64,000 nt of DNA from Mobula birostris (lineage: Eukaryota). The notes beneath the pieces were generated by a model. The model was not told where the DNA came from. It did not search any database and saw nothing but the letters and a program-made list of their open reading frames with translations. A program made the position numbers and the translations under genes. This document shows positions 8,025 to 63,135 of this stretch, one piece after another. The first letter of the stretch is position 1. The number at the start of each line of letters is the position of its first letter. The stretch spans positions 13,512,782-13,576,781 of the forward strand of contig NC_092377.1 in the NCBI RefSeq assembly GCF_030028105.1, given 5' to 3'.

Positions 8025-8135
8025 ATATCCAATCAAAGGATAGATAAGCGAATCGTTTGCCCAATCAACCAATGGAAATGTTCTCTATTCACATCCCTCA
8101 TTAACATACGGATGTCGGCGTTGTCTATTTAATCC
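8025..8135 (+). promoter_or_regulatory. H2B proximal promoter (CCAAT boxes, degenerate octamer ATTAACAT, TATA-like TATTTAA)
   Basis: CCAAT near 8029, 8061 and 8069; ATTAACAT near 8100; TATTTAA near 8125; same order as upstream of the second H2B. Confidence 0.65.
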
Positions 8136-8185
8136 GCACTCCGAGCAGATTCTGTTCATTTCAGCGTTTAAAATCGGCTGAGGAA

Positions 8186-8560
8186 ATGCCCGAACAACAG
8201 AAATCCGCTCCCAAGAAGGGCGCCAAGAAAGCTTTGCCCAAACCAGCGGGCAAGTCTGGCAAGAAACGCAGGAGGGTGAGGAAGGAGAGTTACTCCATCT
8301 ATATCTACAAAGTGATGAAGCAGGTTCACCCCGACACCGGCATCTCCTCCAAGGCCATGAGCATCATGAACTCGTTCGTGAGCGATATTTTCGAGCGCAT
8401 CGCGGGCGAGGCTTCCCGGCTGGCCCATTATAACAAGCGATCGACCATCAGCTCCCGGGAGATCCAGACTGCCGTGCGCCTGCTGCTGCCTGGGGAGCTG
8501 GCCAAGCACGCCGTGTCGGAAGGGACAAAGGCGGTGACCAAGTACACCAGCTCCAAGTGA
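8186..8560 (+). CDS. H2B: Histone H2B, replication-dependent
   Basis: Intronless 124-aa ORF with [26 protein letters not shown]...AVTKYTSSK; stem-loop downstream. Confidence 0.99.
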
Positions 8561-8592
8561 AGAGTACCCAGAAAACACACCGGAAACCCAAC

Positions 8593-8632
8593 GGCTCTTT
8601 TAAGAGCCACTCACAGATTCACTGAAAGAGTT
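8593..8632 (+). terminator. Histone 3' stem-loop and HDE
   Basis: GGCTCTTTTAAGAGCC (8593-8608) followed by ACTCA and GAAAGAG. Confidence 0.95.
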
Positions 8633-9055
8633 AATACGTAATATTTAACATTAACCAGTGACCCAAAGCCATTGAATTGAAGTAAATATGGAAATTCCTT
8701 TCCTTTTTATATGAGCTAATTCAAGTTCTATCCATGTTCGGTATAATCCCGAGGTCTTTGTTTCTACTATACACACGGGAACATCACCTCCTCCTCTGCG
8801 TCTCTCTCCCGGTTATTAAAAATCGTATTTTTGAAGCGGATAATTGCTGTTTCTGATTTAATGGCGGTGGGGAATGTGGTTTATTAATTTCTGTCCCATT
8901 TTGGCAATTTAATTGAATCCCATTTCAGTGCCTGACGTGAACTTGTTCACGGTTATTTCACAGATATACAAGATATTCTACCGATGCTGGCAATGCAGAA
9001 CAGCACACAATGCGCTGGAGGCGGCTTCTATGGAACTGAATACTGTACTGTAATT

Positions 9056-9151
9056 CGTGTCGGAAGGGACAAAGGACGGAAACCAAGTACACCAGCTCCA
9101 AGTGGAGTGCTGATTAAACAAACCGGAAACCCAACGGCTCTTTTAAGAGCC
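9056..9151 (+). pseudogene. Orphan H2B 3' end with intact stem-loop
   Basis: Last ~50 nt of H2B with indels and TGA>TGG, then GGCTCTTTTAAGAGCC (9136-9151); 9056-9590 duplicates 8512-8985. Confidence 0.9.
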
Positions 9152-10169
9152 ACGCACAGATTCACTAAATCAGTTAATACGTAATATTTAACATTAACCA
9201 GTGACCCAAAGGCATTGAATTGAAGTAAATCTGGTAATTTCTTCTCCATGAGCTAATTCAAATTGCATCCATATTAGTCGGTAAACCAGCTCAGTATACT
9301 GTAATCTCGAGGTGTTTGTTACATTCTTACCGCACACGGAAGTATCACTTTCCTCCACGGTGTCACTGTCCAGGTTATTACAAATTGTATCTATGTGAAG
9401 ATTAGCCGTTTCTAGATAGAGACAGATAGATACATTATTGATCCCAAAGGAAATTATAGTATCACAGTAGCTTTCATTGCCGTGGGGAATGTAGTTTATT
9501 AATGACTGCCCTTTTTGGCAATTTACTGAATCCATTTTAATGCCAGACCTGAACTAATTCACGGTTCTTTCACAGACACACAAAATACTCTGCAGAAATC
9601 CAGAGCAACACATAATCCTGGAGGAATTCATCGGGTCTATGGAAATGAATATTTTCATTTTATCTGTGCAATCATTTGTTAAAACTACAGGCTAAACTAG
9701 TCTCAGTCTGAGAGAGCGATCTGATGAACAGCGAACAGAAGCGATTTGTTTTGTTCTGAGCGCTTATCACTTGAAAGAGTTCGGCGAATTAACTTCCTAG
9801 ACGCTGTTTCAATATTAACTACTCCTATATTAAATGTGTCGGACTTCAGTAATGGGGTGAATGAGGAGACCAAATGGACAAACAGATTTGAAATAATTCC
9901 TTTTAGATTATGTTTGAACATTTTTTGGCGGGTTTTTGAAATTTCAGTTTTTTTCGGAAATTAGCGGTTGGTTTCCGCTCTTCAGTTGTTGCTGTTTCTT
10001 GGTTGGTGAATAAGGCAGCTGCCTGATTGGATTATATCCAGTCAACATTGAGTTTAAGCGTTGAGCACCAATCATAAATGTCCGACTGCATTCCCCTCCC
10101 CCCCCCCCAAAGCTACAAATAGAGCGAGGACTGGAATATTTCGTCACTCTTGGTGACATCAGTTGTTAA

Positions 10170-10559
<390 letters not shown>

Positions 10560-10589
10560 AGCGACAGATTCTGAACCCGGTGACCCAAA

Positions 10590-10630
10590 GGCTCTTTTAA
10601 GAGCCACTCACAGTGTCTGTGAAAGGGCTG
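10590..10630 (+). terminator. Histone 3' stem-loop and HDE
   Basis: GGCTCTTTTAAGAGCC (10590-10605), GAAAGGGCTG downstream. Confidence 0.95.
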
Positions 10631-11696: not shown

Positions 11697-13601
11697 TACA
11701 GTGCGGTGCAAAAGTTTGGGCATCCACGGTCAAAATTTCTGTTACTGTGAATAGCTAAGCGAGTAAAAGATGACCTGATTTCCAAAAGGCATGAAGTTAA
11801 AGATGACACATTTCTTTAATATTTTAAGCAAGAAAACTTTTTTATTTCCATCTTTTACAGTTTCAAAATAACAAAAAAGGAAAAGGGCCCAAAGTAAAAG
11901 TTTGGGCACCCTGCATGGTCAGTACTCAGTAACACCCCCTTTGGCAAGTATCACAGCTTGTAAACGCTTTTGTAGCCAGCTAAGAGTCTTTCAATTCTTG
12001 TTTGGGGGATTTTCGCCCATTCTTCCTTGCAAAAGGCTTCTAGTTCTGTGAGATTCTTGGGCTGTTTTGCATGCACTGCTCTTTTGAGGTCTATCCACAG
12101 ATCTTCGATGATGTTTAGGTCAGGGGATTGTGAGGCCCATGGCAAAACCTTTAGCTTGCGCCTCTTGAGGTAGTCCATTGTGGATTTTGAGGTGTGTTTA
12201 GGATCATTATCCTGTTGTAGAAGCCATCCTTTTTTCATCTTCAGCTTTTTTACAGATGGTGTGATATTTGCTTCCAGAATTTGCTGGTATTTAATTGAAT
12301 TCATTTTTCCCTCTACCAGTGAAATGTTCCCCGTGCCACCGGCTGCAACACAAGCCCAAAGCATGATCGATCCACCCCCGTGCTTAACAGTTGGAGAGGT
12401 GTTCTTTTCATGAAATTCTGCACCCTTTTTTCTCCAAACATACCTTTGCTCATTGCGGCCAAAAAGTTCTATTTTACCTTCATCAGTCCACAGGACTTGT
12501 TTCCAAAATGCATCAGCCTTGTTTAGATGTTCCTTTGCAAACTTCTGACGCTGAATTTTGTGGTGAGGATGCAGGAAAGGTTTTCTTCTGGTGACTCTTC
12601 CATGAAGGTCATATTTGTGCAGGTGTTACTGCACAGTAGAAGAGTGCACCACCACTCCAGAGTTGGTTAAATCTTCCTGAAGGTCTTTTGCAGTCAAACT
12701 GGGGTTTTGATTTGCCTTTCTAGCAAACCTACGAACTGTTCTCTCAGAAAGTTTTCTTGGTCTTCCAGACCTCAACTTGACCTCCATCATTCCTGTTAAC
12801 TGCCATTTCATAATTACATTATGAACTGAGGAAACGGCTACCTGAGAATACTTTGCTATCTTCTTATACCCTTCTCCTGCTTTGCGGGCATCATTTATTT
12901 TAATTTTCACATTGCTAGGCAGCTGCTTAGAGGAGCCCATGGCTGCTGGTTGTTGGGACAAGGCTTGAGGAGTCAGAGTATTTATAAAGCTTTGAAATTT
13001 GCATCACCTGGCCTTTCTTAACGATGACTGTGAACAAGTCATAGCCCTAACAAGCTAATTAAGGTCTGAGACCTTGGTAAAAGTTATCTGAGAACTCAAA
13101 TCTCTTGGGGTGCCCAAACTTTTGCATGGTGCTCCTTTCCTTTTTTTTCACTCTAAAATTGTACAAAACAAAAATAATACACTAATCTTGCTTAAAATGT
13201 TGAAAATGTAACATACCCCGTGGGTCTTATGAGCATGATGTAATGGTCTTGCAGAGGTCAAATGATGTTAATTTCACGCCAGTGTGAGGTCACGTGATGA
13301 CCTGTTCTCAACAAGTATATAAAAGGAAACCCTGGTGACGCAGTTTAGTTTTCAGTTTAGTTTTGTGTTAGTTCGTTATGCTACTCCGTTATGCTGTGTA
13401 TTTGTCATGATGCAGTTTCGTTTTAAAATGGAGTTTTCCTGTCTGTTTTAAGGTGCAAAGATTAGTGTTGGTAGTTTCGCTAATTGCTGCCAGGTTTATG
13501 TGTGTTGCATCTATAATTTTCCCTTTCCAGTAGTATTGGAGAGTGAAGACTTTATTAAAGGATGGGAACCTGAAGGATCGGAATAACGTTGGAGTCGTTC
13601 G

Positions 13602-15504
13602 TGAACGCAGCAGGCCAGGCAGCATCTCTAGGAAGCAGTATGGTTGAAGTTTCGGGCTGAGACCCTTTGTCAGGACTAACTGAAGGAAGAGTTACTAAGA
13701 GATTTGAAAGTGGGAGGGGGAGTGGGAGATCCAAAATGATAGGAGAAGTCAGGAGGGAGAGGGATGGAGCCGAGAGCTGGACAGGTGACTGGCAAAGGGG
13801 ATATGAGAGGATCATGGGACAGGAGACCCAAGGAGAAAGACAAGGGGGGGGAACCCAGAGGATGGGCAAGGGGTCCAGAGCAGGCAGAAGACCAGAGCGG
13901 GGTGTCCATGAAGAAGAGGAGGGTTGAAGACGGGAGAAGGGGTCATCGGTGGGGGTGGAAGAGTCCTTGCCGAAGAAGTAGGCTCGGAGACAGAGACGGT
14001 GGAAGAAGAGTTCTGCATCGTGGTGAACACGGAACTCGCTGAGGTGTGGGCGAAGGGGGACAAAGGTGAGGCCCTTACTGAGGACAGAGCGTTCTGCCTC
14101 CGACAGTTGAAGGTCGGAGGGGATGGTAAAGATCCGGCGCGAATGAGAGCTGGGATCAAAGGGGGGAGGGGGAGGCTGGGGGTGTCAGTGGAGAGGGGAT
14201 GGTTGGGCCGAGAAGAAGATGGAGCCTCTGAGTTCCCAGGAGCTGACAATGGGATCTGAGGGAGACGGGATTGCAGAGTATTGGTGGGGGAAGGGGAGAT
14301 GGGAGTCACAACAGCAGCATATAAAGACCCGGCCTGGAGTTCAAGGCTGGCGTCGCAGTTGGTGGTTGCGCAATCGCTGTGAAGGTGTCCATGGTCGTTG
14401 CTGAAGTCTGGGTTTTTAATATGCCCTGAGGTGTTGGAGCTGGCGAGATCAGTGGCAGGGGCCGCAGTCTGAAGTTCATGCCTGCTAGTTTCATGGCCAG
14501 CAGGCTCTGGAGATCGCAAGATCCTACAACTACGGACTCCAGGGCCTGCCGGCCATGAAACTAGCAGGCATGAACTTTAGACTGCAGCTCCTGCCATTGA
14601 TCTCACGGGCTCCAACACCTCAGGGCATATTCAAAACCCGGACTCCAGCAACGACCATGGACACCTTCACAGCGATTGCGCAACCACCAACTGCGACTCC
14701 AGCCTTGAACTCCAGGCCAGGTCTTTATGTGCTGCTATTGTGACTCCCGTCTCCCCTTCTCCCACCAATACTCTGCAATCCCGTCTCCCTCAGATCCCAT
14801 CGTCAGCTCCTGGGTACTCAGAGGCTCCATCTTCTTCTCGCCCCAACCATCCCCTCTCCACTGACACCCCCAGCCTCCCCCCTCCCCCCTCTGACCCCAG
14901 CTCTCATCAGTGCTGGGTCTTTACCATCCCCTCCGACCTTCAACTGTCGGAGGCAGAACGCTCTGTCCTCAGTAAGGGCCTCACCTTTGTCCCCCTTCGC
15001 CCACACCTCAGCGAGTTCCGTGTTCACCATGATGCGGAACTTTTCTTCCGCCGTCTCCGTCTCCGAGCCTACTTCTTCGGCAAGGACTCTTCCACCCCCA
15101 CCGATGACCCCTTCTCCCGTCTTCAACCCTCCTCTTCTTCATGGACACCCCGCTCTGGTCTTCTGCCTGCTCTGGACCCCTTGCCCATCCTCTGGGTTCC
15201 CCCCCCTTGTCTTTCTCCCTGGGTCTCCTGTCCCACGATCCTCTCATATCCCCTTTGCCAGTCACCTGTCCAGCTCTTGGCTCCATCCCTCCCCCTCCTG
15301 TCTTCTCCTATCATTTTGGATCTCCCCCTCCCCCTCCCACTTTCAAATCTCTTAGTAACTCTTCCTTCAGTTAGTCCTGACGAAGGGTCTCAGCCTGAAA
15401 CGTCGACTGTACCTCTTCCTAGAAATGCTGCCTGGCCTGCTGTGTTCACCAGCAACTTTGAAGTGTGTTGCTTGAATTTCTAGCATCTGCAGAATTCCTG
15501 TTGT
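13602..15504. mobile_element. Fold-back (inverted) internally deleted Penelope-like element
   Basis: Arms 13601-14512 and 14537-15449 are reverse complements with a 24-bp spacer; LSEAERSVLSKGLTFVP..FFRRLRLRAYF PLE N-terminal motif; TSD TTGGAGTC(G/A)TTCG. Confidence 0.88.
15373..15408 (+). ncRNA. Minimal type I hammerhead ribozyme motif
   Basis: AGTC-CTGACGA-AGGGTCTCAGCCT-GAA-ACGT-C-GACT. Confidence 0.75.
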
Positions 15505-16689
15505 TTGGAGTCATTCGGCGGTTTTATACAGGATCGACCTTATCGAGCATTCATTCAGAAGTGGTGACCTGTATCTGAGATAACTCCTGCAAGAGCAGGG
15601 AAGTTTGTGCAGTGTCCACTCACCAGAAAAAGGTCAGTTCCTTTACGCTGTTTTATTTCCTTCATCGTGAATCCTTTTGGAGAATCAGCAGTAACATCAC
15701 GTCTTCGAAGAAATCTGTTTCCAGAGAAATCTCTCCTTATTGACTGTGTAAATCACTTGGACTTTCAAATTTACCATTTTAAGACTGGGTTCGAATTTAC
15801 CACTTTAAGAACTGTTTTCGCATTTACCCTTTTAAGAACTGTTCCAGAGTTGCTGTATAGCAGTCAACTTACGGTTAAGTTAGTCGTTGAAAATTTTTCA
15901 CTATTAATGAGCAGAGTTTAGTAAATGTTTTTGTTTGTTTATAAAACCTGCCTCGTTTCATAATTCATTGTTGCCGATCACGTGACAAAAAGAATGTTTC
16001 ATCTTTAACTTTGTCTTTTGGAGATCAGTTCATCTTCTACTCACTTAACTATTCACAGTAACAGAAATTTTGTCAGAGCCCTGGAGTCTGTTGCAGAACA
16101 GAGGGTCCTCCAGATAGAATTCCAGAAAGTGCCAACATAGGCGAACAAGGTGGTGCTTGACTTCATTTGCCTTCTTTAGAGTCAGGCCAGTGAGTACAGG
16201 AGTCAGGATGTTATGTTTAAACTGTACAAGATGTCAGTGGAATTCTACTTGGGATATTGTATGCAGTTCTGGTCACCTAGCTACAGGAACAGGGTGATGT
16301 AGCTGGAGAGGGTGCAGGAAACATTCACAAAGATGTTTCTCTGAGACTGGAGGGCTTGAATTACAAGGACAGGTAGGGCAGGCTGGGTCTGTTTCTCTGG
16401 AGCACAAAGTGATGGGTTTATATATTAATTCATGGATAGATAAATATATATTACTCTGTAGCCTCACACTCTGCAATGTCCTCCAGTCCCTGTGACCCTC
16501 TGACATGTCTCTTCTCCGACATCCTTAGTCCCTTTTGAATCCTCACTTCCTGTTTTCGATTGGAGCACTGTGCTCTGTCGTTTTCCATATGTGTTGGTGA
16601 TTTGGATGAGAATATAAATGGCAAAAATAATAAATTTGCAGAAGTTCACCCTCCTGAAAGATGCACTACTAGTCATAGGCCTGCATTGT

Positions 16690-20984: not shown

Positions 20985-21048
20985 CAATGGAAATGCTCGA
21001 CCTCTCCATTCTTCATTAGCATACTGCTTTCAGCGCTGCCTATTTAAA
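20985..21048 (+). promoter_or_regulatory. H2B promoter: CCAAT, octamer variant ATTAGCAT, TATA
   Basis: CCAAT near 20985, ATTAGCAT 21015-21022, TATTTAAA 21041-21048. Confidence 0.75.
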
Positions 21049-21100
21049 CCGGGCTCCGAGTCATGTGTGTTCATTTTGCCGTTTGATTCCAAGTGAAGAA

Positions 21101-21475
21101 ATGCCCGAGCAGCAGAAATCCGCTCCCAAGAAGGGCGCCAAGAAAGCTTTGCCCAAACCAGCGGGCAAGTCTGGCAAGAAACGCAGGAGGGTGAGGAAGG
21201 AAAGTTACTCCATCTATATCTACAAAGTGATGAAGCAGGTTCACCCCGACACCGGCATCTCCTCCAAGGCCATGAGCATCATGAACTCGTTCGTGAGCGA
21301 TATTTTCGAGCGCATCGCGGGCGAGGCTTCCCGGCTGGCCCATTATAACAAGCGATCGACCATCAGCTCCCGGGAGATCCAGACTGCCGTGCGCCTGCTG
21401 CTGCCTGGGGAGCTGGCCAAGCACGCCGTGTCGGAAGGGACAAAGGCGGTGACCAAGTACACCAGCTCCAAATGA
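21101..21475 (+). CDS. H2B: Histone H2B (second copy)
   Basis: Same protein as 8186-8560; ATG at 21101. Confidence 0.99.
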
Positions 21476-21507
21476 AATGTGCCGACTAACCAAACCGGAA
21501 ACCCAAC

Positions 21508-21547
21508 GGCTCTTTTAAGAGCCACTCACAGATTCATTCAAAGAGTT
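21508..21547 (+). terminator. Histone 3' stem-loop and HDE
   Basis: GGCTCTTTTAAGAGCC (21508-21523), AAAGAG downstream. Confidence 0.95.
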
Positions 21548-22460
21548 ACTACTCCCGCCCACGCGGAAGCATAATTCCGTCCTTCGCCTCTCTGTTGGTT
21601 ATTAGAAACTGTATCTCCCACATATCCAACATTTACGAAAACATTACAAATAACCACTGACAAAACAGGAAACTCAGAGTCATTAAAAGTTAGAGATATT
21701 TTGCCATTGAATGAGGCAAGCATCGAAGTTCAATGAGCAAATTGAAATTCTATTCATGTTAACCGGCCGACTGTCCGGTATTATCCCGAGGTCTTTGTTG
21801 CATTCTTCCTATAGCGCGCACGCGGAACTATCATCCCCTCTATAGCCTTACTGTCGGTCATTACAAATTGTGTATTTGTGAAGCGGATATTTGCTGATTC
21901 TGATTTAATAGCTGTGGGGAATCTGATTGATTAATTTTTGTCCCATTTTGACAGCTTATGCGAATCCCATTTCAGTGCCAGACATGAACTGGTTCACGGG
22001 TCTTCTCACAGATACCTTTTGTCTGCGAAGTAATTTGTTAAAACTGCAGGTTAAACCAGTCGCAGTCTGAGAAGACCGGTGTTTTCATAACCTGATCAGC
22101 TTATAATGACCGGCCGCGAACAGAAGCGAAGTTTTCGCTCAGAGCGTTGATCACTTGAAAGAAATCTGCGAATTAATTTCCTAGATATTTTTTCCATATT
22201 ACTTACACGCGTATTAAATGTGTCGGACTTCATTAATGGGATGTATGCGGAGACCAACATCTGGAATATTTTGATTTTAGGTTAGGTTTGAACAAAGGAT
22301 TTTTTGGCGGGCTTTTTCAAATTTCTTTTATAGGAAATAAACGGTTAGTTTCCGCGCTTCTGCTATTGCTGTCTCTTGATTGGTGAATAAAGCTGCCCCC
22401 TGATTGGACTATATCATGGCACCACTGAGATTAAGTGTGGTTGCTCCAATAGAAAAATGA

Positions 22461-22928
<468 letters not shown>

Positions 22929-23000: not shown

Positions 23001-24604
23001 CTACGGTTACCATGGGTGCGGGTGAAAGGGCTCAAATTTATATTTGATTGTTTACTGTGTGGTTAATTGAAATTTCCTCCTGTTGCGAAGCTCACAGGGT
23101 GAACAGTCGGGTTGCAGTCCGAAATGACGGAGGTGGGTCCCCCACTGATGTTGGAATTGAATGTTTTTTATAGGAGTCCAGCAGTGTGATCGATTACATG
23201 TAGCCGCCCGTTCCAGAGGAAGTATGGGGGGGGGGGGGTGTGAGGTGTTGGGCAAGAGAGGTCCGTGCCAAGGGAGGTGAGTGACCGCAGGGTGGTGATG
23301 AAGCATTCCCTGCTTGAGGAGAGGCTTGAACATCATGACAGGTGTCATTTCATTGGCTCTTCACTGAACCCTGGGACATCTTATGACTGCGAGGCTAAGT
23401 AGAGCGCCAATGCCATATTTAAGATTGCTGTCGTCGCCTGCAGGTTCAGGAACAGTTAGTACTCCTCAACCAGAGGGGATAACTGCACTTTTACGGAGTC
23501 TACAACTGATGTTCGCGATATTTATTGTTTTCTAATTTATTATTCTTACTTTTTTTTCTCTTTTTGTACTTATACAGTTTGTCTTTTGCAGATTGTTTTG
23601 TCTTTGTTGCTAGTTTTCACTAGTTCTGTTGTGTTTCTTTGTATTTACCGGCATTGCAGTGGAACAAAGTGATACAATAGAATCAGTGAAAAATTACACA
23701 TAAGCACAGAGAGATCATTCTGCAAAAGACAAACTGCAAATATGTATAAGGAAGTGTGTATGGTGACACATACAGTACCTATCGATAATGAATTTATTTT
23801 GAAATTTGAACTTAACGTTTCAGCCCACAGGTCCTTCATCAGATAACATTGCTACCTTTCAATACTTAGAGAACAAAATTCGAATTGAATCTAAGTATGA
23901 AGTGTCACCATAAACAACCCTACTAAACTGAACTATTATTTTTTTATCATTTTCAACTTCCCTGTCCTTTGAAACATGGATATTTGGAATTATCGCCCTT
24001 TTTTTTTTCCTGTCCTGGTGTTAAATTCTATTTCCCTCCCCCAGTGGTAAATTTGACATTGAAATGTGTCTGAGAAGTAAGTAATTGCCCGCTGTGTCTC
24101 CTTTGATCGAAAGCTCACTTTGCTCTGCCCCCCAGGCTGTGGACAGGAGATAATGTCACTTGACACCTCTTTGTGGAACTATTTGTGTGTTGGCATCCCT
24201 GATGTTGTTCCCGCGGCTATGGGCTGGTGCAGCCTCGGGTGGTGGCAATGTGATGTAATGAGCTTCTTCTGTGGTTTGCAGGTTGATGTGGAGAGATGGA
24301 GAAGACAGCGACTGGATCAGATGATCTAAACCGTGCTCTCTGCTATTGCCATGTTTCCCATTCTCATCCTTAAGCTCACACCCCTTCTTGTTCCTCACCC
24401 CCCCCACTCTTGCTGTAACCTCCTCCCATCCTGGCAAACTCTCGCTGCTCTGCTCTCCTCCAGCTGTGGCCTCTTATATATTGTCGCATTATTTTTTTTG
24501 GACTGGTGACCTGTTACCAGACGCGCTGCTGGGGAAGGGGTTGAGCATTTTGATTATCAAATATATTGATAAGTTGAATGAGAATATATGTAGGGTGATT
24601 ACTA

Positions 24605-31954: not shown

Positions 31955-32186
31955 TAAGACAATAGAGACAGACTTAAGCTATTTGGCCCATCTAGTCTGC
32001 TCTGCCATTCCACCATGACTGATTTATTATCTGTCTCAACCCCATTCTCCCATAACCTTTGATACACTTACTATAGACACTATCAACCTTCACTTTAAAT
32101 GTACTCAATGACTTGGCCTGCACAACTGTCTATGGCAGTGAATTTCTCATATTCACCGCCAACTGGCTAAACAAATTCTTCCTCAC

Positions 32187-32296
32187 AACACACATCAAAG
32201 TTGCTGGTGAACGCAGCAGGCCAGGCAGCATCTCTAGGAAGAGGTACAGTCGACGTTTCAGGCTGAGACCCTTCGTCAGGACTGTTTGTGTTTTTA
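32187..32296 (-). mobile_element. 110-bp hammerhead-containing Penelope-derived insertion
   Basis: Perfect 14-bp TSD AAATTCTTCCTCAC (32173-32186, 32297-32310). Confidence 0.85.
32246..32285 (-). ncRNA. Minimal type I hammerhead ribozyme motif
   Basis: Minus strand ACAGTC-CTGACGA-AGGGTCTCAGCCT-GAA-ACGT-C-GACTGT. Confidence 0.75.
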
Positions 32297-34999
32297 AAAT
32301 TCTTCCTCACCTCTGTTCTAAAGAGACTTCTGTGTATTCTGAGTCTTGTGTTCTCTGGTGCTAGACACCACACTTTTGGAAACATCCTCTACAAATTAGC
32401 TCTATCCAAGGCTTTCAATATTCAGTAGGTTTCAATGAGATCCCCCTCAATCTTCTGAACTCCAATAAAAACAGGCCCAGATTCGGCGAATGCTCCACGT
32501 ACTTTAACCCTTTCATTCCTGGGATCATTCTCATGATAACTCTGGACCCTCCTCAATTCCTCTCCACCTAGGTTTTTTCTTGGATAAGGGGCCCAAAACT
32601 CTTCACAACACTCTAAGTGTAATTTGACCAATGCCTTATAAAGCCTCAGCAATACATCCTCGCTTTTGTATTCTAGTTCTCTTGAAATAAATGCTGATAT
32701 CAGAATCAAGTTTAATATCACAGGCATGTCATGAAATTCGTTGTTTTGCAGCTGCAGTACTTTACAATACATAATTTTAAAAAGCTATAAATAACAATAA
32801 GTATATATCAAGATGATACTGGCATACATCAGCAACTCTCTGCGGGCTGTAGAAAACTGTACCAGTTTTCCTCTTAAATATACTCCCTTTGAATTACTTT
32901 CGCTGCAATCAGCAGCAGGTAAATTTCCTCTTAGCGACAGACTATGAAATTACATCAGTGATCTTCAGTTCTCACAATCGATGGTTGAATGCGAGGCAGT
33001 TATGCATGGCACCTTTAAGGATCAATGCCATAGCCGAAAACACTGCAGGAGAGGAGGAATTCAAACCAGGCTGAAGCATACAGAGATGAGGTCTCCTCTA
33101 CCCAGCATCTTGTCGGTGAATGTGCAGCTGCTGGAAATTAAGATTTATGATCTCAGGGCAAGACTGATGAATCAAAAGCAGATGGGCAGATCTCAATTGT
33201 TTGTTGCAGCGAGACTTGGTTCTCAGAACCGATGGTCCCACTTTAAGGACTGGTTATCTTGTTATTTCATACTCATTATTTATTGCTATTTATTTATATT
33301 TGTATTCGCACAATTTGTTGTTGATTGGTTCTGTTGCTGTTCTATAAATTTGCTAAGCATGCCCACAAGAAAAAGAATATCAGGGTTATGTGTGGTGATG
33401 CATATGTATTCTGATAATAAGACATTTTGGAATTTTGTTTAAATAAAAAGAAAGTGAAATTATTTGTGTAGTGCAAAAAGTGAAGGGAATAATAGTGAGG
33501 CAGTGTTCATAGGTTCATTGTTCATTCACAAATCTGCTGGCAAAGGGGAAGAAGCTGTTTCTGAAACATTACCCCTTGTAGTCATGATCAGTGAAGCACA
33601 GGGAGAGTCTGTAATGCCAGTCAGTACCTTTATTGTCTCAATGGAAGAACATGTGAACTTACATAACTGAATTCATGTCTGCACACCAACTAAGTTTTCC
33701 TGACCATTCACAAACAGTCAAAGAATAGAAAAGATATTACCTGTTAAAAAGGAGTTTCTGCTGCTGGCCACATGTTCCTCATAGTCCCGTTTCCAATCTC
33801 CACATGTCCGTTGGGTTCTCCTCATCTGCGATCATTGTTCCCTTACTGTGTTACCTCTGCTATGGATTTGGAGCTCCTGACTCTTATTGTGTTCCTCATC
33901 AGTTGAACTGATGGATCTCCAGCCCATTGGCTCAAGGTCACCTGGCCTACCTGGGTCACCTTCTAAATGGCTCTAGTCCAGGGCTAAAATCAACGCTGTT
34001 CTATATTTTGCCCCTCTGCCCCCAGCCTTGTGTAGATGTTCCTTTCAAATTCGACTGGTCCAAGTTAGTCAAATTAGGGGACCCATACACTAAGTCTAAC
34101 ACTATAGATTGCTTCTTTTGTAGGTCTGGCACTTTACATAACAAATAGCTACTCATCTGAGAATGGTCTCTGGTTTAGCATGTCATGGCTTGAAGCTCCT
34201 TGTGTGCACATTCAATTGCTCTGATCAGATTATCCCAGAGGACAAATCAGAGTCCACAAAATGGGGGAAAACCATGCTGACTTTGACTTATTTTATCATG
34301 AGTCTCCAAGTACCCTGAAACCTCATCCTTAATAATAGACTCCAACGCTTTCCCAACCACTGAGGTTAGGTTAACTGGCTCCATAATTTCCTCTCTTTTG
34401 CCTTCCTCCCTTCTTAAAGAGTGAAGAGACGTTTGTAATTTTCCAGTTCTCCAGGACCATGCCACAATCAAGTGATTCTTGAAAGATCATCACCAATGCA
34501 TCTGTTATCTCTTCAGCAACCTCTCTCAGGACTCTGGGATGTAGTCCATCTGGTCCAGGTGACTTATCCACCTTAAGACCTTTCAGTCTCCCTCACATTC
34601 TCTCCTTTATAATAGCAATGGCACTCACTCCTGCTCCTTGACACTCACAGACCTCTGGCACACTGCTAGCGTCTTCCACAGTGAAGACAAATGCAAAGTA
34701 TCCATTAAGCTTATCTGCCATTTCTTTGTCCCCTATTACTACCTCAGCAGCATCATTTCCAGTGGTCCAATATCAACTCTCACCTTCTTTTTACTCTTTA
34801 TGTAACTGAAAAATCTTCTAGTATCCTGCTTTATATTATTGGCAAGTTTGACCTCATGTTTCATCTTTTCCCTTCTTATAGCTTTTCTAGTCACCTTTTG
34901 TTGAATTTTAAAAGCTTCCCAATCATGCACTCACTTTTGCTACCTTGTAGGCCCTTCCCTCGGATTTTATGTAGTCCCTGCATCAGCCAGTTGTCTACT

Positions 35000-40695: not shown

Positions 40696-41044
40696 TGGCT
40701 ATTGTTCCGTAGTCAGCGAAAACATACGGTGACTCGTTAATTTGCTCAATATTTATTTTACAGTAACAGGCCAAGTTTTATTTAGATCACGTTTGAATGT
40801 TCCTGGTCATTAACGCTTCCAAAAGCCGATTCAGGCTGTATTCGCGGCTGATTTGTATAAATTTAATCAGCTGTAAATGCACTGTTCTCTCTGCGGTCTA
40901 AAGAGAAATAAGGAGAGAAAAAAAATAGTTAATACTGTATGTGAAAGGACGTAATACCTGCAGCTGCAAACTGTTGTGTCTCCGTGAACCTACCATGGAT
41001 TCGAATAGTTACTAAATGGAAGACTGCGTTTATTAAAGCATCAG

Positions 41045-41195
41045 ACACAAAATACTGAAGGAACTCAGTAAGCCAGGCCGCATCTAGAGAAAGGAGTGAA
41101 CAGTCGACATTTCAGGCCGAAACCTTCCATCAGAACTCTCCCATAGATGCTCCTGGCCTGCTGAGTTCCTCCAGCATTTTGTGTGTTGCTTGAAT
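41045..41195 (-). mobile_element. Short Penelope-like fragment with degenerate hammerhead; arms partly inverted
   Basis: GGAACTCAG..GGCCGCATCTA and TAGATGCT..CTGAGTTCC flank CAGTCGACATTTCAGGCCGA..CATCAG. Confidence 0.6.
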
Positions 41196-41408
41196 TTATG
41201 AAAATCCGATTTTCTTAACAGTAACAACCACAAATATCGGGAAACCTCACCCGCAGCAGCCAGCTGTAAGGCAAGGTGTGGGACAGAGATGCCCTGAGGG
41301 GTATATAATGGCCGATTCTCGGGGTCAACCGTTTGTAGTTTGTAAGCAATTCAGAGATCTCTCGGTAAACACAACCAACTGAGGGGAATGTGAGTAAATA
41401 GAATGAGA

Positions 41409-41478: not shown

Positions 41479-41895
<417 letters not shown>

Positions 41896-43409: not shown

Positions 43410-44042
43410 TTACTTTTTAGCTGCTTTTTGCTTGGTCTTCATAGATTTCGCCTTCGGCTTGGCATTTGAAGACTTTTTGGCCGCCTTCGCGGCAGTCATT
43501 TTCTTGGGGCTCTTGGGCTTCTGCGCAGCCTTCTTGGTCGCTGGTTTCTTCGCGGCCGCTTTTTTAGCCGCTGGTTTCTTAGCTACCGCTTTTTTAGGCG
43601 TTAGTTTCTTAACGCCTTGTTTTTTAGTGGGAGATTTCTTAGCCACTGTTTTCTTGGCCGCAGATTTCTTGGCCTGAATTTTGGCCGCTGGTTTCTTCGC
43701 TTTTTTGGCGGTGCTCTCTTTCTTAGCGGCCTTCAAGGAGCCGGAGACACCCGCGCCCTTAGTGTGAACCAGGGAGCCGCTTTCCAATTTCTTCTTTATG
43801 ACCATCTTGATCTGGCGATTGAACTTCTCCACGTTGACGCCGTTGGCGGCTAACTCCTTCTTTATCGCGATGACGGACACCCCTCGGCGATTGCGGCAAT
43901 CCGCCACAATTTTGTCGATTTGTTCGCCTAGCCTAGGGCCGGCTAGCTTGGTGCGGGCGGCCGCCTTCTTCTTCTTGAGAGCTTTGGTTGCGGCGGCGGG
44001 CGCGGCTGGAGGAGCTGATTCGGCGGCTGCAGTCTCGGTCAT
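43410..44042 (-). CDS. H1: Linker histone H1 (210 aa, divergent globular domain)
   Basis: MTETAAAESAPPAAP start, winged-helix GVS..AIKK.L..TKGAGVSGS.K, K/A/P-rich tail, stem-loop. Confidence 0.96.
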   Translation of the reverse strand: MTETAAAESAPPAAPAAATKALKKKKAAARTKLAGPRLGEQIDKIVADCRNRRGVSVIAIKKELAANGVNVEKFNRQIKMVIKKKLESGSLVHTKGAGVSGSLKAAKKESTAKKAKKPAAKIQAKKSAAKKTVAKKSPTKKQGVKKLTPKKAVAKKPAAKKAAAKKPATKKAAQKPKSPKKMTAAKAAKKSSNAKPKAKSMKTKQKAAKK

Positions 44043-44117
44043 GTCGACGACTCTGTACAAACTCCCTCTCGGTCTCAGAACTGGGTGAGAAATGAAGCGA
44101 GAAGCGACCGCGCAGAG

Positions 44118-44545
44118 CAATTTAAAGGCAGCGAGCGGACGGGGCGGAGACATTCTGATGTCAGCTCTTGGCTGCCCCATCTCTCTGTGTTTCTCTCTCC
44201 TCAAAAACTCTCCGATTTCAATTAAAATAGGTCACCCCTGAGACCCACACCGCTCTCTGTCTGTACCCGAGGTAAGATTACTTGCTGTAAAGGAAGTTTG
44301 GTCCGATTTAAAAGCAGCAGTTTCCATATAAACCAGTTTCACTGCTGCCCAGACTTCGTTTTCTACTGCGATCGTCGACATGTTCGCTGTTCCTCGACAG
44401 AAATATTGCAACCAACTAAAACTCTGCGGTTAATTCCTACTTCAGGATTGAGCTGGGAAGCGAGTGCATCCTGTGACGGGGAAATATTTCATTTTCCATA
44501 GGAGGGGCTGAAAAATCTAGCAACGTGATCGGACTCACAAACACA
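44118..44545 (-). promoter_or_regulatory. H1 promoter: TATA-like, GC box, H1 box (AAACACA), upstream TG box
   Basis: TTTAAA near 44121, GGGGCGG near 44141, H1 box 44186-44192, TGTGTTT (sense) 44539-44545. Confidence 0.75.
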
Positions 44546-44672
44546 GTGACTCCACTCTGAGCCGTCCGGTCCTTTAAACACTCTCTGACTCGATGTTCAC
44601 AACTGGCACATTCACAGCGCGAACTGTTGACCCGGTACGCAGCACCTAGCGCAAGCTTTTCTTTCTGCCGAC

Positions 44673-44838
44673 CTTTCTCTCTTACTAGCTCTTCTTTCAG
44701 TTAGTCCTGACGAAGGGTCTCGGCCCGAAACGTCGACTGTACCTCTTCCTAGAGATGCTGCCTGGCCTGCTGCGTTCCCCAGCAACTTTGATGTGTGTTG
44801 TTTTAAATTCCAGCATCTGCAGATTTCCTCGTGTTTGC
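44673..44838 (+). mobile_element. Penelope-like terminal fragment
   Basis: Near-identical to 15345-15504. Confidence 0.8.
44703..44738 (+). ncRNA. Minimal type I hammerhead ribozyme motif (consensus-intact)
   Basis: AGTC-CTGACGA-A-GGGT-CTCG-GCCC-GAA-ACGT-C-GACT. Confidence 0.8.
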
Positions 44839-45149
44839 GTTTCTGCAGATTATCGAGTGTTATTTGTAGATTCTCATCTCGATAACTGTAAAGGCCCCGA
44901 GACCAGCGCTTCTCACAGTCCTGATCCCTAGTTTAGGGTAGGTTTCATCTCCTCCTTACGTGGGCTATATTTTTAGTTTAACCAGGAGACCAAGATCGTT
45001 TGCAATCTCTGACTGTTTGATCAACTACACCCAGCCTCCCTACGTTTCTGTTCAGTTCCCCAGTTAATTTCACAAATCTGTTCGGGGCTGATGTGGGTGT
45101 CACAGACACATCGGATTTGAGACGCGCCATTCACAAAAGCGTAATTGAA

Positions 45150-62100: not shown

Positions 62101-62507
62101 TTTATCGGGGAGACAGGAGGTCTCACGGGCTTCCCACATCCCACACACAAGTACAAAACATCACAGGAGTCCCGATGAAGGTGTCTCGGTTGGAAACGCC
62201 GACTGTTTACTCTGTTCAATAAATGTTGCCTGGCCTGCTAAATTCTTCTAGCATTTTGTGAGGTACACAGTGCGATCAATGTAAGATTAAAATTGACCTC
62301 CAACCATTAGTCCTGAGACTGGCCAAAGTCCAGCGGCCAGTGACTCATACTGGTATCTCGGCAGCCCCCACCCTACGTCGTACTTCGTCTGGAATGGGCT
62401 GTTTGAAATCAATGCTGGATATTAAGCTTTATGCACTACAAAAGACACGGTTGGGGTCGGTCATACAACGCCGACAGTTGGTGAGGGACCCAACTGTGGG
62501 CTTCATT

Positions 62508-63135
62508 AAAACAACATACATCAAAGTTGCTGGTGAACGCAGCAGGCCAGGCAGCATCTCTAGGAAGATTACAGTCGACGTTTCGGGCCGAGACCCTTCG
62601 TCAGGACTAACTGAAGGAAGAGCTAGTAAGAGATTTGAAAGTGGGAGGGGGAGGGGAAGATCCAAAATGATAGGAGAAGACAGGAGGGGGAGGGATGGAG
62701 CCAAGAGCTGGACAGGCGATTGGCAAAAGGGATATGACAGGATCATGGGACAGGAGACCCAGGGAGAAGGAAAAGGGGGAGGGAGGGGAAAAACCCCAGA
62801 GGATGGGCAAGAGGTATAGTGAGAGGGACAGAGGGAGGAAAAGGAGAGTGAGAGAAAGAATGTGTGTATAAAAATAAATAACGGATACCCCATCCGTTAA
62901 AGGGGGAGGTGGGGCATTAGCTGAAGTTAGAGAAGTCAATGTTCATGCCATCAAGTTGGAGGCTACCCAGACGGAATATAAGGTGTTGTTCCTCCAACCC
63001 GAGTGTGGCTTCATCTTTACAGTAGAGGAGGCCGTGGATAGACATATCAAAATGGGAATGGGATGTGGAATTAAAATGTGTGGCCAGTAGGAGATCCTGC
63101 TTTCTCTGGCGGACAGAGCGGAGGAGTTCATTAAC
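62508..63135 (-). mobile_element. Penelope-like 3' fragment (GIY-YIG C-terminus plus terminal repeat)
   Basis: ATHFNSTSHSH..LEEQHLIFRLGSLQLDGMNIDFSNF*; 3' region nearly identical to the palindrome arms. Confidence 0.88.
62573..62608 (-). ncRNA. Minimal type I hammerhead ribozyme motif (consensus-intact)
   Basis: Minus strand AGTC-CTGACGA-A-GGGT-CTCG-GCCC-GAA-ACGT-C-GACT. Confidence 0.8.

What the first reader, a model, noticed from the sequence alone, without database searches (positions are those of the whole stretch)
13589..15517. 1.9-kb fold-back Penelope palindrome inserted in a single event
Seen: ~912-bp arms (13601-14512 and 14537-15449) are separated by only 24 bp. One 13-bp TSD (TTGGAGTCGTTCG / TTGGAGTCATTCG) brackets the whole structure. 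Both arms share the same internal deletion, with the ORF N-terminus ...SGLLPALD fused straight to the 3' terminal region, and the right arm extends ~55 bp further. Inference: a non-autonomous template was copied and then re-copied by hairpin self-priming or template switching, giving a fossil of the PLE replication intermediate. If transcribed, for example from the host LTR TATA near 13316, it would form a ~900-bp dsRNA hairpin.
Basis: partly seen in the sequence, partly recalled or inferred. Interest (0 to 1): 0.8.

Follow-up and report, generated by a model that had tools for sequence, protein, structure and literature searches.

The report
Ordinary head-to-head Penelope transposon insertion
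This is a dead jumping-gene copy, probably from a ray, that landed as two mirror-image halves; that layout is the textbook footprint of Penelope-type retrotransposons, and two smaller examples lie in the same stretch of DNA.

Summary
The structure is real: arms of 911 and 912 bp (13602-14512, 14537-15448), a 24-bp spacer, a 59-nt extension on the right arm only, and one 13-bp target duplication around the whole. Both arms lack about 2 kb holding RT and endonuclease. It is a Penelope-like element (PLE); the closest named proteins are from stingrays. It lies in a solo LTR inside a Tc1 terminal repeat. An inverted 5'-truncated copy, a one-sided tail and one TSD form the published typical PLE layout, self-priming was proposed for it in 2013, and 3 of 11 related loci in this window are head-to-head. 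One event is well supported. Hairpin self-priming is possible but not favoured: the join has only 1-2 nt of homology. Priming from both target ends on one transcript fits at least as well. New caveat: a 160-bp identical run spans the deletion junction (permutation P 0.004), so later arm-to-arm conversion is likely and the shared deletion does not prove a pre-deleted template. A transcript would form a ~900-bp duplex, but no expression data were available. Low interest.

The parts
13589..13601 (+). Left copy of the 13-bp target-site duplication
   Evidence: 12 of 13 identical to 15505-15517; chance control 6 of 200,000
13602..14512 (-). Left (inverted) arm, 911 nt: 5'-truncated, internally deleted PLE without the tail; private 1-nt frameshift near 14173
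13642..13677 (-). Hammerhead ribozyme motif of the left arm, with core and cleavage-site positions mutated
   Evidence: not matched by the motif scan that finds the right-arm copy; sequence shown
14513..14536 (+). 24-nt spacer: the right arm's own ORF continuing 5'-ward, joined to the left arm through 1-2 shared bases at 14511-14512
   Evidence: in-frame DRKILQLRT matches KDCKIFHLQT of P0002; the preceding Lys codon gives the 1-2 nt estimate (inference)
14537..15448 (+). Right (direct) arm, 912 nt: ORF N-terminal-domain fragment joined to 3' UTR/pLTR; private stop at 14578-14580
15176..15182 (+). Deletion junction (mirror 13868-13874); about 640 codons plus about 100 nt of UTR missing, including DKG motif, RT and GIY-YIG
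   Evidence: size estimated from distant full-length relatives P0004 and P0005
14918..15218 (.). Tract of unusually high arm-to-arm identity (mirror 13832-14132), spanning the deletion junction; candidate gene-conversion tract
   Evidence: 5 of 301 differences inside, 44 of 610 outside; identical runs of 160 and 112 bp
15373..15408 (+). Minimal type I hammerhead ribozyme motif, core intact, with an extra base after A9 and a palindromic helix III
   Evidence: motif scan; features as in PMC4209133 passages; no Rfam hammerhead match
15449..15507 (+). One-sided 59-nt PLE tail; last 3 nt shared with the right TSD copy
   Evidence: same sequence ends the copy at 44678-44837
15505..15517 (+). Right copy of the target-site duplication
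13207..15987 (+). Host: probable solo LTR (TG...CA ends, flanked by A-runs, about 865 bp without the PLE); orientation inferred from TATA 13316 and AGTAAA 15920
   Evidence: empty site shown by the uninterrupted opposite Tc1 repeat; LTR family not identified
11700..16072 (-). Outer host: Tc1/mariner element; transposase remnants at 11951-13003; the LTR interrupts its right terminal inverted repeat
   Evidence: Pfam DDE_3, HTH_Tnp_Tc3_2 and HTH_SB; repeats 164 of 209 columns identical

Best explanation
One target-primed integration by a PLE protein supplied in trans. The endonuclease made a 13-nt staggered cut (inferred from the TSD). The bottom-strand end paired with 3 nt at the end of the RNA tail and primed the right arm. 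The top-strand end primed on the same deleted transcript (or a sister transcript) 59 nt further upstream and gave the left arm. Both cDNAs ran to about the same point, probably the end of a broken or truncated RNA, and were joined head to head through 1-2 shared bases, leaving 24 nt unpaired. Gap filling fixed the TSD. The arms then decayed neutrally (about 2.8% each), with at least one later arm-to-arm conversion in the middle. Shown: geometry, TSD, element origin of the spacer, deletion, decay pattern. Inferred: the priming order, the use of one RNA, and conversion. No function is needed or shown.
For: One TSD and none per arm. An anole PLE protein cuts and extends both strands, is predicted to be a dimer, and starts RT at two sites whose spacing is the tail (PMC11167929). 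The copy at 32173-32310 has a short inverted tail piece that does not overlap its direct arm, inside one 14-bp TSD; fold-back cannot make this (chance 71 of 20,000 against the last 30 nt, 637 of 20,000 against all 165 nt). The left target overhang can pair 7 Watson-Crick plus 4 G-U of 13 with the RNA exactly where the left arm stops; 2 of 983 positions reach 11, and 37 of 983 reach 7 Watson-Crick. CpG decay is split 10 left and 9 right; 39 transitions to 10 transversions. Arms share 16 states against the 62-kb copy over about 279 columns.
Against: Two RT runs that stop 24 nt apart need a common stop, which is assumed. Overlapping copies from one RNA need strand displacement, not shown for PLEs in what I read. 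The overhang-pairing measure was chosen after seeing the site and also fits capture of a fold-back strand. PMC3846280 favours self-priming for such structures. The final sequence cannot by itself separate inter-strand from intra-strand annealing. In the 3' region the left arm has 11 private changes and the right arm 4 (P 0.12).
Confidence: 0.5

Rival explanations
1. Fold-back: one cDNA stalled at 14511-14513, snapped back leaving a 24-nt loop, copied itself for 911 nt and was captured by the left target end.
For: Explains without extra assumptions the close inner ends, the element-derived spacer, the shared deletion and one TSD. Self-priming was proposed for head-to-head PLE structures in PMC3846280. 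The 41.0-41.2 kb locus has the same overlapping geometry.
Against: Only 1-2 nt of homology at the join. The predicted best hairpin at the cDNA end has a 4-nt loop. It does not explain the non-overlapping 32-kb example. The tail is explained biochemically by two start sites.
Confidence: 0.25
2. The insertion had longer arms (up to about 2.9 kb each). The 2-kb deletion arose later in one arm and was copied to the other by arm-to-arm conversion or loop repair. Compatible with either priming model.
For: The identical run containing the junction is 160 bp (P 0.0039, 50,000 CpG-stratified permutations). Divergence is 5 of 301 around it and 44 of 610 elsewhere. The junction has several bases of likely homology between ORF and UTR sides (ORF bases inferred from protein).
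Against: A conversion tract could cover the junction by chance (160 to 301 of 912 columns). Lower local mutation rate in a pyrimidine-rich stretch is not excluded. Internally deleted PLE derivatives with inverted pLTRs and a TSD are described. Symmetric loss is less expected than loss of the centre (own knowledge).
Confidence: 0.25
3. A pre-existing palindromic source copy was transcribed and retrotransposed whole, so the inversion predates this insertion.
For: PLEs can mobilise sequence between pLTRs in trans. It would give one TSD and a shared deletion.
Against: RT would have to copy through a ~900-bp RNA duplex. No second copy of the 5' part or spacer in the window; the rest of the genome was not available.
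Confidence: 0.08
4. Two independent insertions at the same spot.
For: Family 3' ends are common here (11 loci in 64 kb), and one PLE protein can cut its own pLTR.
Against: One TSD and none per arm. Same deletion, same inner end within 24 nt, and 16 shared states against a third copy.
Confidence: 0.02
5. Assembly or library fold-back artefact.
For: Palindromes with tiny spacers are a known artefact class (own knowledge).
Against: Differences are 49 substitutions to 1 indel, transition- and CpG-biased and split over both arms. Flanks are unique, bear a TSD and continue one LTR.
Confidence: 0.01

Closest known systems
Typical EN+ PLE insertion with inverted 5'-truncated copy and tail (PMC8557442 Fig. 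2 legend and text; PMC3846280, Adineta Pen2a/Pen2; passages read)
   Same: Head-to-head inverted copy at the 5' end, one TSD around the unit (9-10 bp there), tail on one end only, a derivative with an internal microhomology-mediated deletion
   Different: Here the inverted arm copies almost the whole insert (911 of 995 nt), not just a ~200-bp pLTR; there is no upstream direct pLTR; the tail is 59 nt against 30-40; no palindrome at the join itself
Poseidon from Anolis carolinensis, PAc (PMC11167929; main text read)
   Same: Hammerhead near the 3' end; variable 3' ends and a tail; in vitro cutting and extension of both strands fits this geometry
   Different: A different clade is likely (distant relatives here carry the CX2-5CxxC linker). 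PAc prefers AT-rich targets, this target is not AT-rich. PAc was reported to start without homology, whereas junctions here share 1-4 nt with the target. Inverted products were not shown in vitro
Drosophila virilis Penelope copies with long inverted repeats giving siRNA (PMC3681739; passages)
   Same: Rearranged inverted copies that can give dsRNA; siRNAs mapped to the inverted regions there
   Different: No expression or small-RNA data here; this copy is old and 5.4% diverged
LINE-1 5' inversion by twin priming (PMC10760644; passage)
   Same: Both target ends prime; cDNAs joined by microhomology; one TSD
   Different: L1 inversions join non-overlapping parts (own knowledge), like the 32-kb locus; here the arms overlap almost fully and the enzyme is a GIY-YIG PLE
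Predicted proteins P0001 (Hemitrygon akajei), P0002 (Hypanus sabinus), P0003 (Chiloscyllium punctatum)
   Same: 78% and 76% identity over 99% of the 198-aa fragment; 66% over 49% for P0003
   Different: They continue past LPALD into the RT region; none shows this deletion junction

Membership tests
EN+ Penelope-like element | ORF homologous to PLE polyproteins with RT and C-terminal GIY-YIG | tested here: met
   5 hits among 1938 candidates; 3 of 5 carry RVT_1 and 2 of 5 a sub-cutoff GIY-YIG match. The fragment itself has no Pfam match
EN+ Penelope-like element | RT, DKG motif and endonuclease present in this copy (autonomy) | tested here: not met
   Deleted in both arms; the C-terminal end survives in the 62.9-63.1 kb copy, 23 of 62 identical to P0004
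EN+ Penelope-like element | Minimal hammerhead motif in the pLTR region | tested here: met
   Right arm 15373-15408, one of 4 motif hits in the window, all in this family; left-arm copy decayed; no Rfam hammerhead model matched; cleavage not tested
EN+ Penelope-like element | Short TSD, 5' truncation, inverted 5' copy, one-sided tail | tested here: met
   TSDs of 8-14 bp at all 5 family loci examined for one
EN+ Penelope-like element | Direct pLTR / partial tandem upstream of the ORF | tested here: not met
   The insert starts inside the ORF; this feature is optional in truncated copies
Neptune/Nematis clade | CX2-5CxxC linker between RT and EN (PMC8557442) | tested here: inconclusive
   Deleted here; present in 2 of 2 full-length distant relatives, P0004 and P0005, at 41-55% identity
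Neptune/Nematis clade | RT phylogeny with reference elements | not testable with these tools
   RT absent from the locus and no reference PLE set held
Non-autonomous PLE subfamily | Several independent copies with the same deletion junction | tested here: inconclusive
   None elsewhere in 64 kb; none among 400 protein candidates, 2 hits, both covering only the pre-junction part; genome not available
Solo LTR (host) | TG...CA ends, 4-6 bp TSD, no internal domain, empty site | tested here: met
   TSD length is blurred by an A-run; LTR family not identified
Endogenous siRNA / ADAR substrate locus | Transcription through both arms, small RNAs or editing | not testable with these tools
   Only folding potential computed

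The most novel reading that the evidence does not exclude
PLE head-to-head insertions are made by both cut target ends priming on one RNA at the two tail start sites, with overlapping copies made by strand displacement. The resulting short-spacer palindromes then persist in cartilaginous-fish genomes and are edited by arm-to-arm conversion that can even copy a 2-kb deletion. Ray genomes would hold a large natural record for testing how PLE inverted structures arise.
Probability: 0.2. Interest if true: 0.5.

Novelty: new member of a known kind. Interest (0 to 1): 0.2.

Why it matters
As a single locus it matters little: the layout is described and the copy is dead. Its use is as a clean specimen. 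How PLE tandem and inverted structures form is still called unresolved in PMC8557442, and base-exact joins like this one, collected genome-wide, could separate two-ended priming from self-priming. The uneven arm identity also warns that shared lesions in palindrome arms need not date from insertion.

Tried and rejected
Rfam scan of 13000-16200: 3 matches, all microRNA precursor models far below gathering score, two caused by the hairpin centre; rejected. Pfam on the arm fragments and the 62.9-kb piece: 0 families for 3 of 3. Protein search across the deletion junction: no protein with the same fusion, weak evidence. A 7-nt match between the TSD and the inner arm end (14530-14542): rejected as chance, because 3 of 983 positions do as well. 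A cluster of 8 differences in 33 columns at the left arm's hammerhead: not significant (P 0.088). Excess change on the left arm's 3' part, 11 against 4: not significant (P 0.12). The open frame running across the deletion into the UTR: also open in the undeleted copy at 62429-62896, so no sign of a selected fusion protein. bioRxiv 10.1101/2024.08.27.596794 and 10.64898/2026.07.22.740005: passages gave nothing on fold-back joins. Seven paper searches listed no paper on ray or shark PLE palindromes or on conversion between PLE arms; the library is incomplete and I judged most hits from listings only. No eukaryotic genome could be searched, so other copies and orthologous loci stayed unchecked. 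Structure prediction was not run; it would not bear on the question.
Full report
Observation. A self-comparison of the window finds the inverted repeat. Aligned, the left arm 13602-14512 and right arm 14537-15448 give 912 columns with 49 substitutions and 1 indel: 5.4% different, Kimura 5.6%. The spacer is 24 nt. A 13-nt direct repeat, 12 of 13 identical, abuts both outer ends; 6 of 200,000 random position pairs did as well. Neither arm has its own duplication. The right arm runs 59 nt further.

Not an artefact. The differences are 39 transitions and 10 transversions; 25 fall in 84 CpG columns and 24 in 828 others; CpG loss is split 10 left and 9 right. Each arm has a private lesion: a stop at 14578 on the right, a frameshift near 14173 on the left. 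This is neutral decay of two old copies. Long reads were not available.

What the element is. The right-arm frame matches 5 proteins among 1938 candidates: two stingray predictions at 78% and 76% over 99% of the query, a bamboo-shark protein with RT, and two unnamed full-length proteins with RT and weak GIY-YIG matches. The host is therefore probably a ray (inference). Homologues read LPALD-LFI and go on to the DKG motif and RT; both arms switch at 15176-15182 into sequence that is 3' UTR in the copy at 62.5-63.1 kb, which still has the endonuclease C-terminus and stop. About 640 codons and 100 nt of UTR are missing. The spacer is not filler: it encodes DRKILQLR in frame with the right arm, matching P0002. 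The left arm is thus an inverted copy of an inner part of a 995-nt right-hand piece, joined through 1-2 shared bases. A minimal hammerhead motif is intact on the right (15373-15408) and decayed on the left (features from PMC4209133 passages). A Neptune/Nematis-type linker is present in the two distant full-length relatives, so that clade is likely but not shown.

Surroundings. The insert lies in a probable solo LTR (13207-15987) that interrupts the right terminal repeat of a Tc1 element; the left repeat shows the empty site. The window is repeat-dense and holds histone genes, recognised from the translations by my own knowledge. No host gene spanning the locus was seen.

It is not unusual. PMC8557442 states that an inverted 5'-truncated copy next to the 5' end, and a 30-40 bp tail on one end, are often found in PLE insertions. 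PMC3846280 calls an inverted pLTR with tail and one TSD the typical structure, describes an internally deleted derivative of that form, and proposes self-priming. PMC3681739 reports siRNAs matching the inverted regions of such copies in flies. In this window, 11 loci match PLE 3'-end queries over 40 nt or more (three shorter hits left out). Three are head-to-head: this one, 41029-41203 (arms about 60 nt, overlapping, 8-of-9 TSD) and 32173-32310 (98-nt direct arm plus about 14 nt of inverted tail, 14-of-14 TSD). I searched for TSDs at 5 of the 11 and found 8-14 bp duplications at all 5; the other six were not examined for short inverted pieces.

Mechanism. One event is well supported. Two routes give the same final sequence. 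In fold-back, one cDNA snaps back and copies itself. In two-ended priming, both cut target ends prime cDNA on the transcript and the two cDNAs anneal at their tips. For two-ended priming: the anole PLE protein cuts and extends both strands and has two RT start sites that define the tail (PMC11167929, main text; its supplementary figures were not seen and bear on tail mapping); the 32-kb locus has non-overlapping arms; the left overhang can pair 11 of 13 bases (7 Watson-Crick, 4 G-U) with the RNA exactly where the left arm ends, reached by 2 of 983 positions, though 37 of 983 have 7 Watson-Crick pairs and the measure was chosen after the fact; and the best predicted cDNA-end hairpin has a 4-nt loop, not 24. 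For fold-back: it explains the nearly coincident inner ends with no further assumption and has published support. I put two-ended priming at 0.5 and fold-back at 0.25.

Arm identity is uneven: 5 of 301 differences in 14918-15218 against 44 of 610 elsewhere (tract limits chosen from the data). The longest identical runs are 160 and 112 bp (P 0.0086 for the longest, 0.0014 for the two together, 20,000 CpG-stratified permutations). The 160-bp run contains the deletion junction (P 0.0039). Arm-to-arm conversion is the simplest reading; PMC1803023 (abstract only) infers an active mechanism keeping long inverted repeats matched in nematodes. The deletion may therefore have been copied between arms after insertion (about 0.25), so a non-autonomous template is likely but not proven. 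Local mutation-rate variation is not excluded.

dsRNA. A plus-strand transcript would pair 862 Watson-Crick and 23 G-U of 912 columns, with an unbroken helix of up to 160 bp (227 bp on the minus strand). A TATA-like motif lies at 13316, an ATTAAA at 13554 before the insert and an AGTAAA at 15920 after it. Whether any transcript crosses both arms is unknown.

Verdict. A real, unusually complete example of a known PLE insertion layout, in a probable ray genome. New member of a known kind; interest 0.2. [quoted passage not shown]

Noticed in passing
window 32173-32310: Small PLE insertion inside a perfect 14-bp TSD: a 98-bp direct piece with an intact hammerhead motif plus about 14 nt matching the inverted tail end, not overlapping; a twin-priming-like footprint.
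   Followed up: yes
window 41029-41203: Miniature head-to-head PLE insertion of a more diverged subfamily: arms about 60 nt, element-derived spacer about 40 nt, 8-of-9 TSD.
   Followed up: partly
window 62502-63134: 5'-truncated direct copy of the same family (minus strand) with endonuclease C-terminus, full 3' UTR, hammerhead motif and 8-bp TSD; served as the undeleted control.
   Followed up: yes
window 44662-44849: Short direct copy with full tail, hammerhead motif and a 9-of-10 TSD.
   Followed up: partly
window 11700-16072: Tc1/mariner element with ~200-bp terminal repeats and a transposase split into two frames; three-level nesting Tc1, solo LTR, PLE.
   Followed up: partly
window 8105-10607, 21020-22928, 41479-41895, 43410-44231: Dispersed histone genes (H2B and H2A pairs twice, H3, H1), recognised from translations; the two H2A-H2B units are 84-90% alike in DNA.
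   Followed up: no
window 13636-13668: Seven or eight changes clustered on the left arm's hammerhead, absent from three other copies; not significant in permutation (P 0.088).
   Followed up: yes
window 15764-15837: Three 21-nt direct repeats spaced 26-27 nt apart inside the solo LTR.
   Followed up: no
window 23575-23736: A weak self-inverted match (69% over 168 columns), unrelated to the PLE.
   Followed up: no
window 14581-15483: The right-arm frame stays open across the deletion through the UTR and hammerhead into the tail; the same UTR frame is open in the undeleted copy, so probably compositional.
   Followed up: partly
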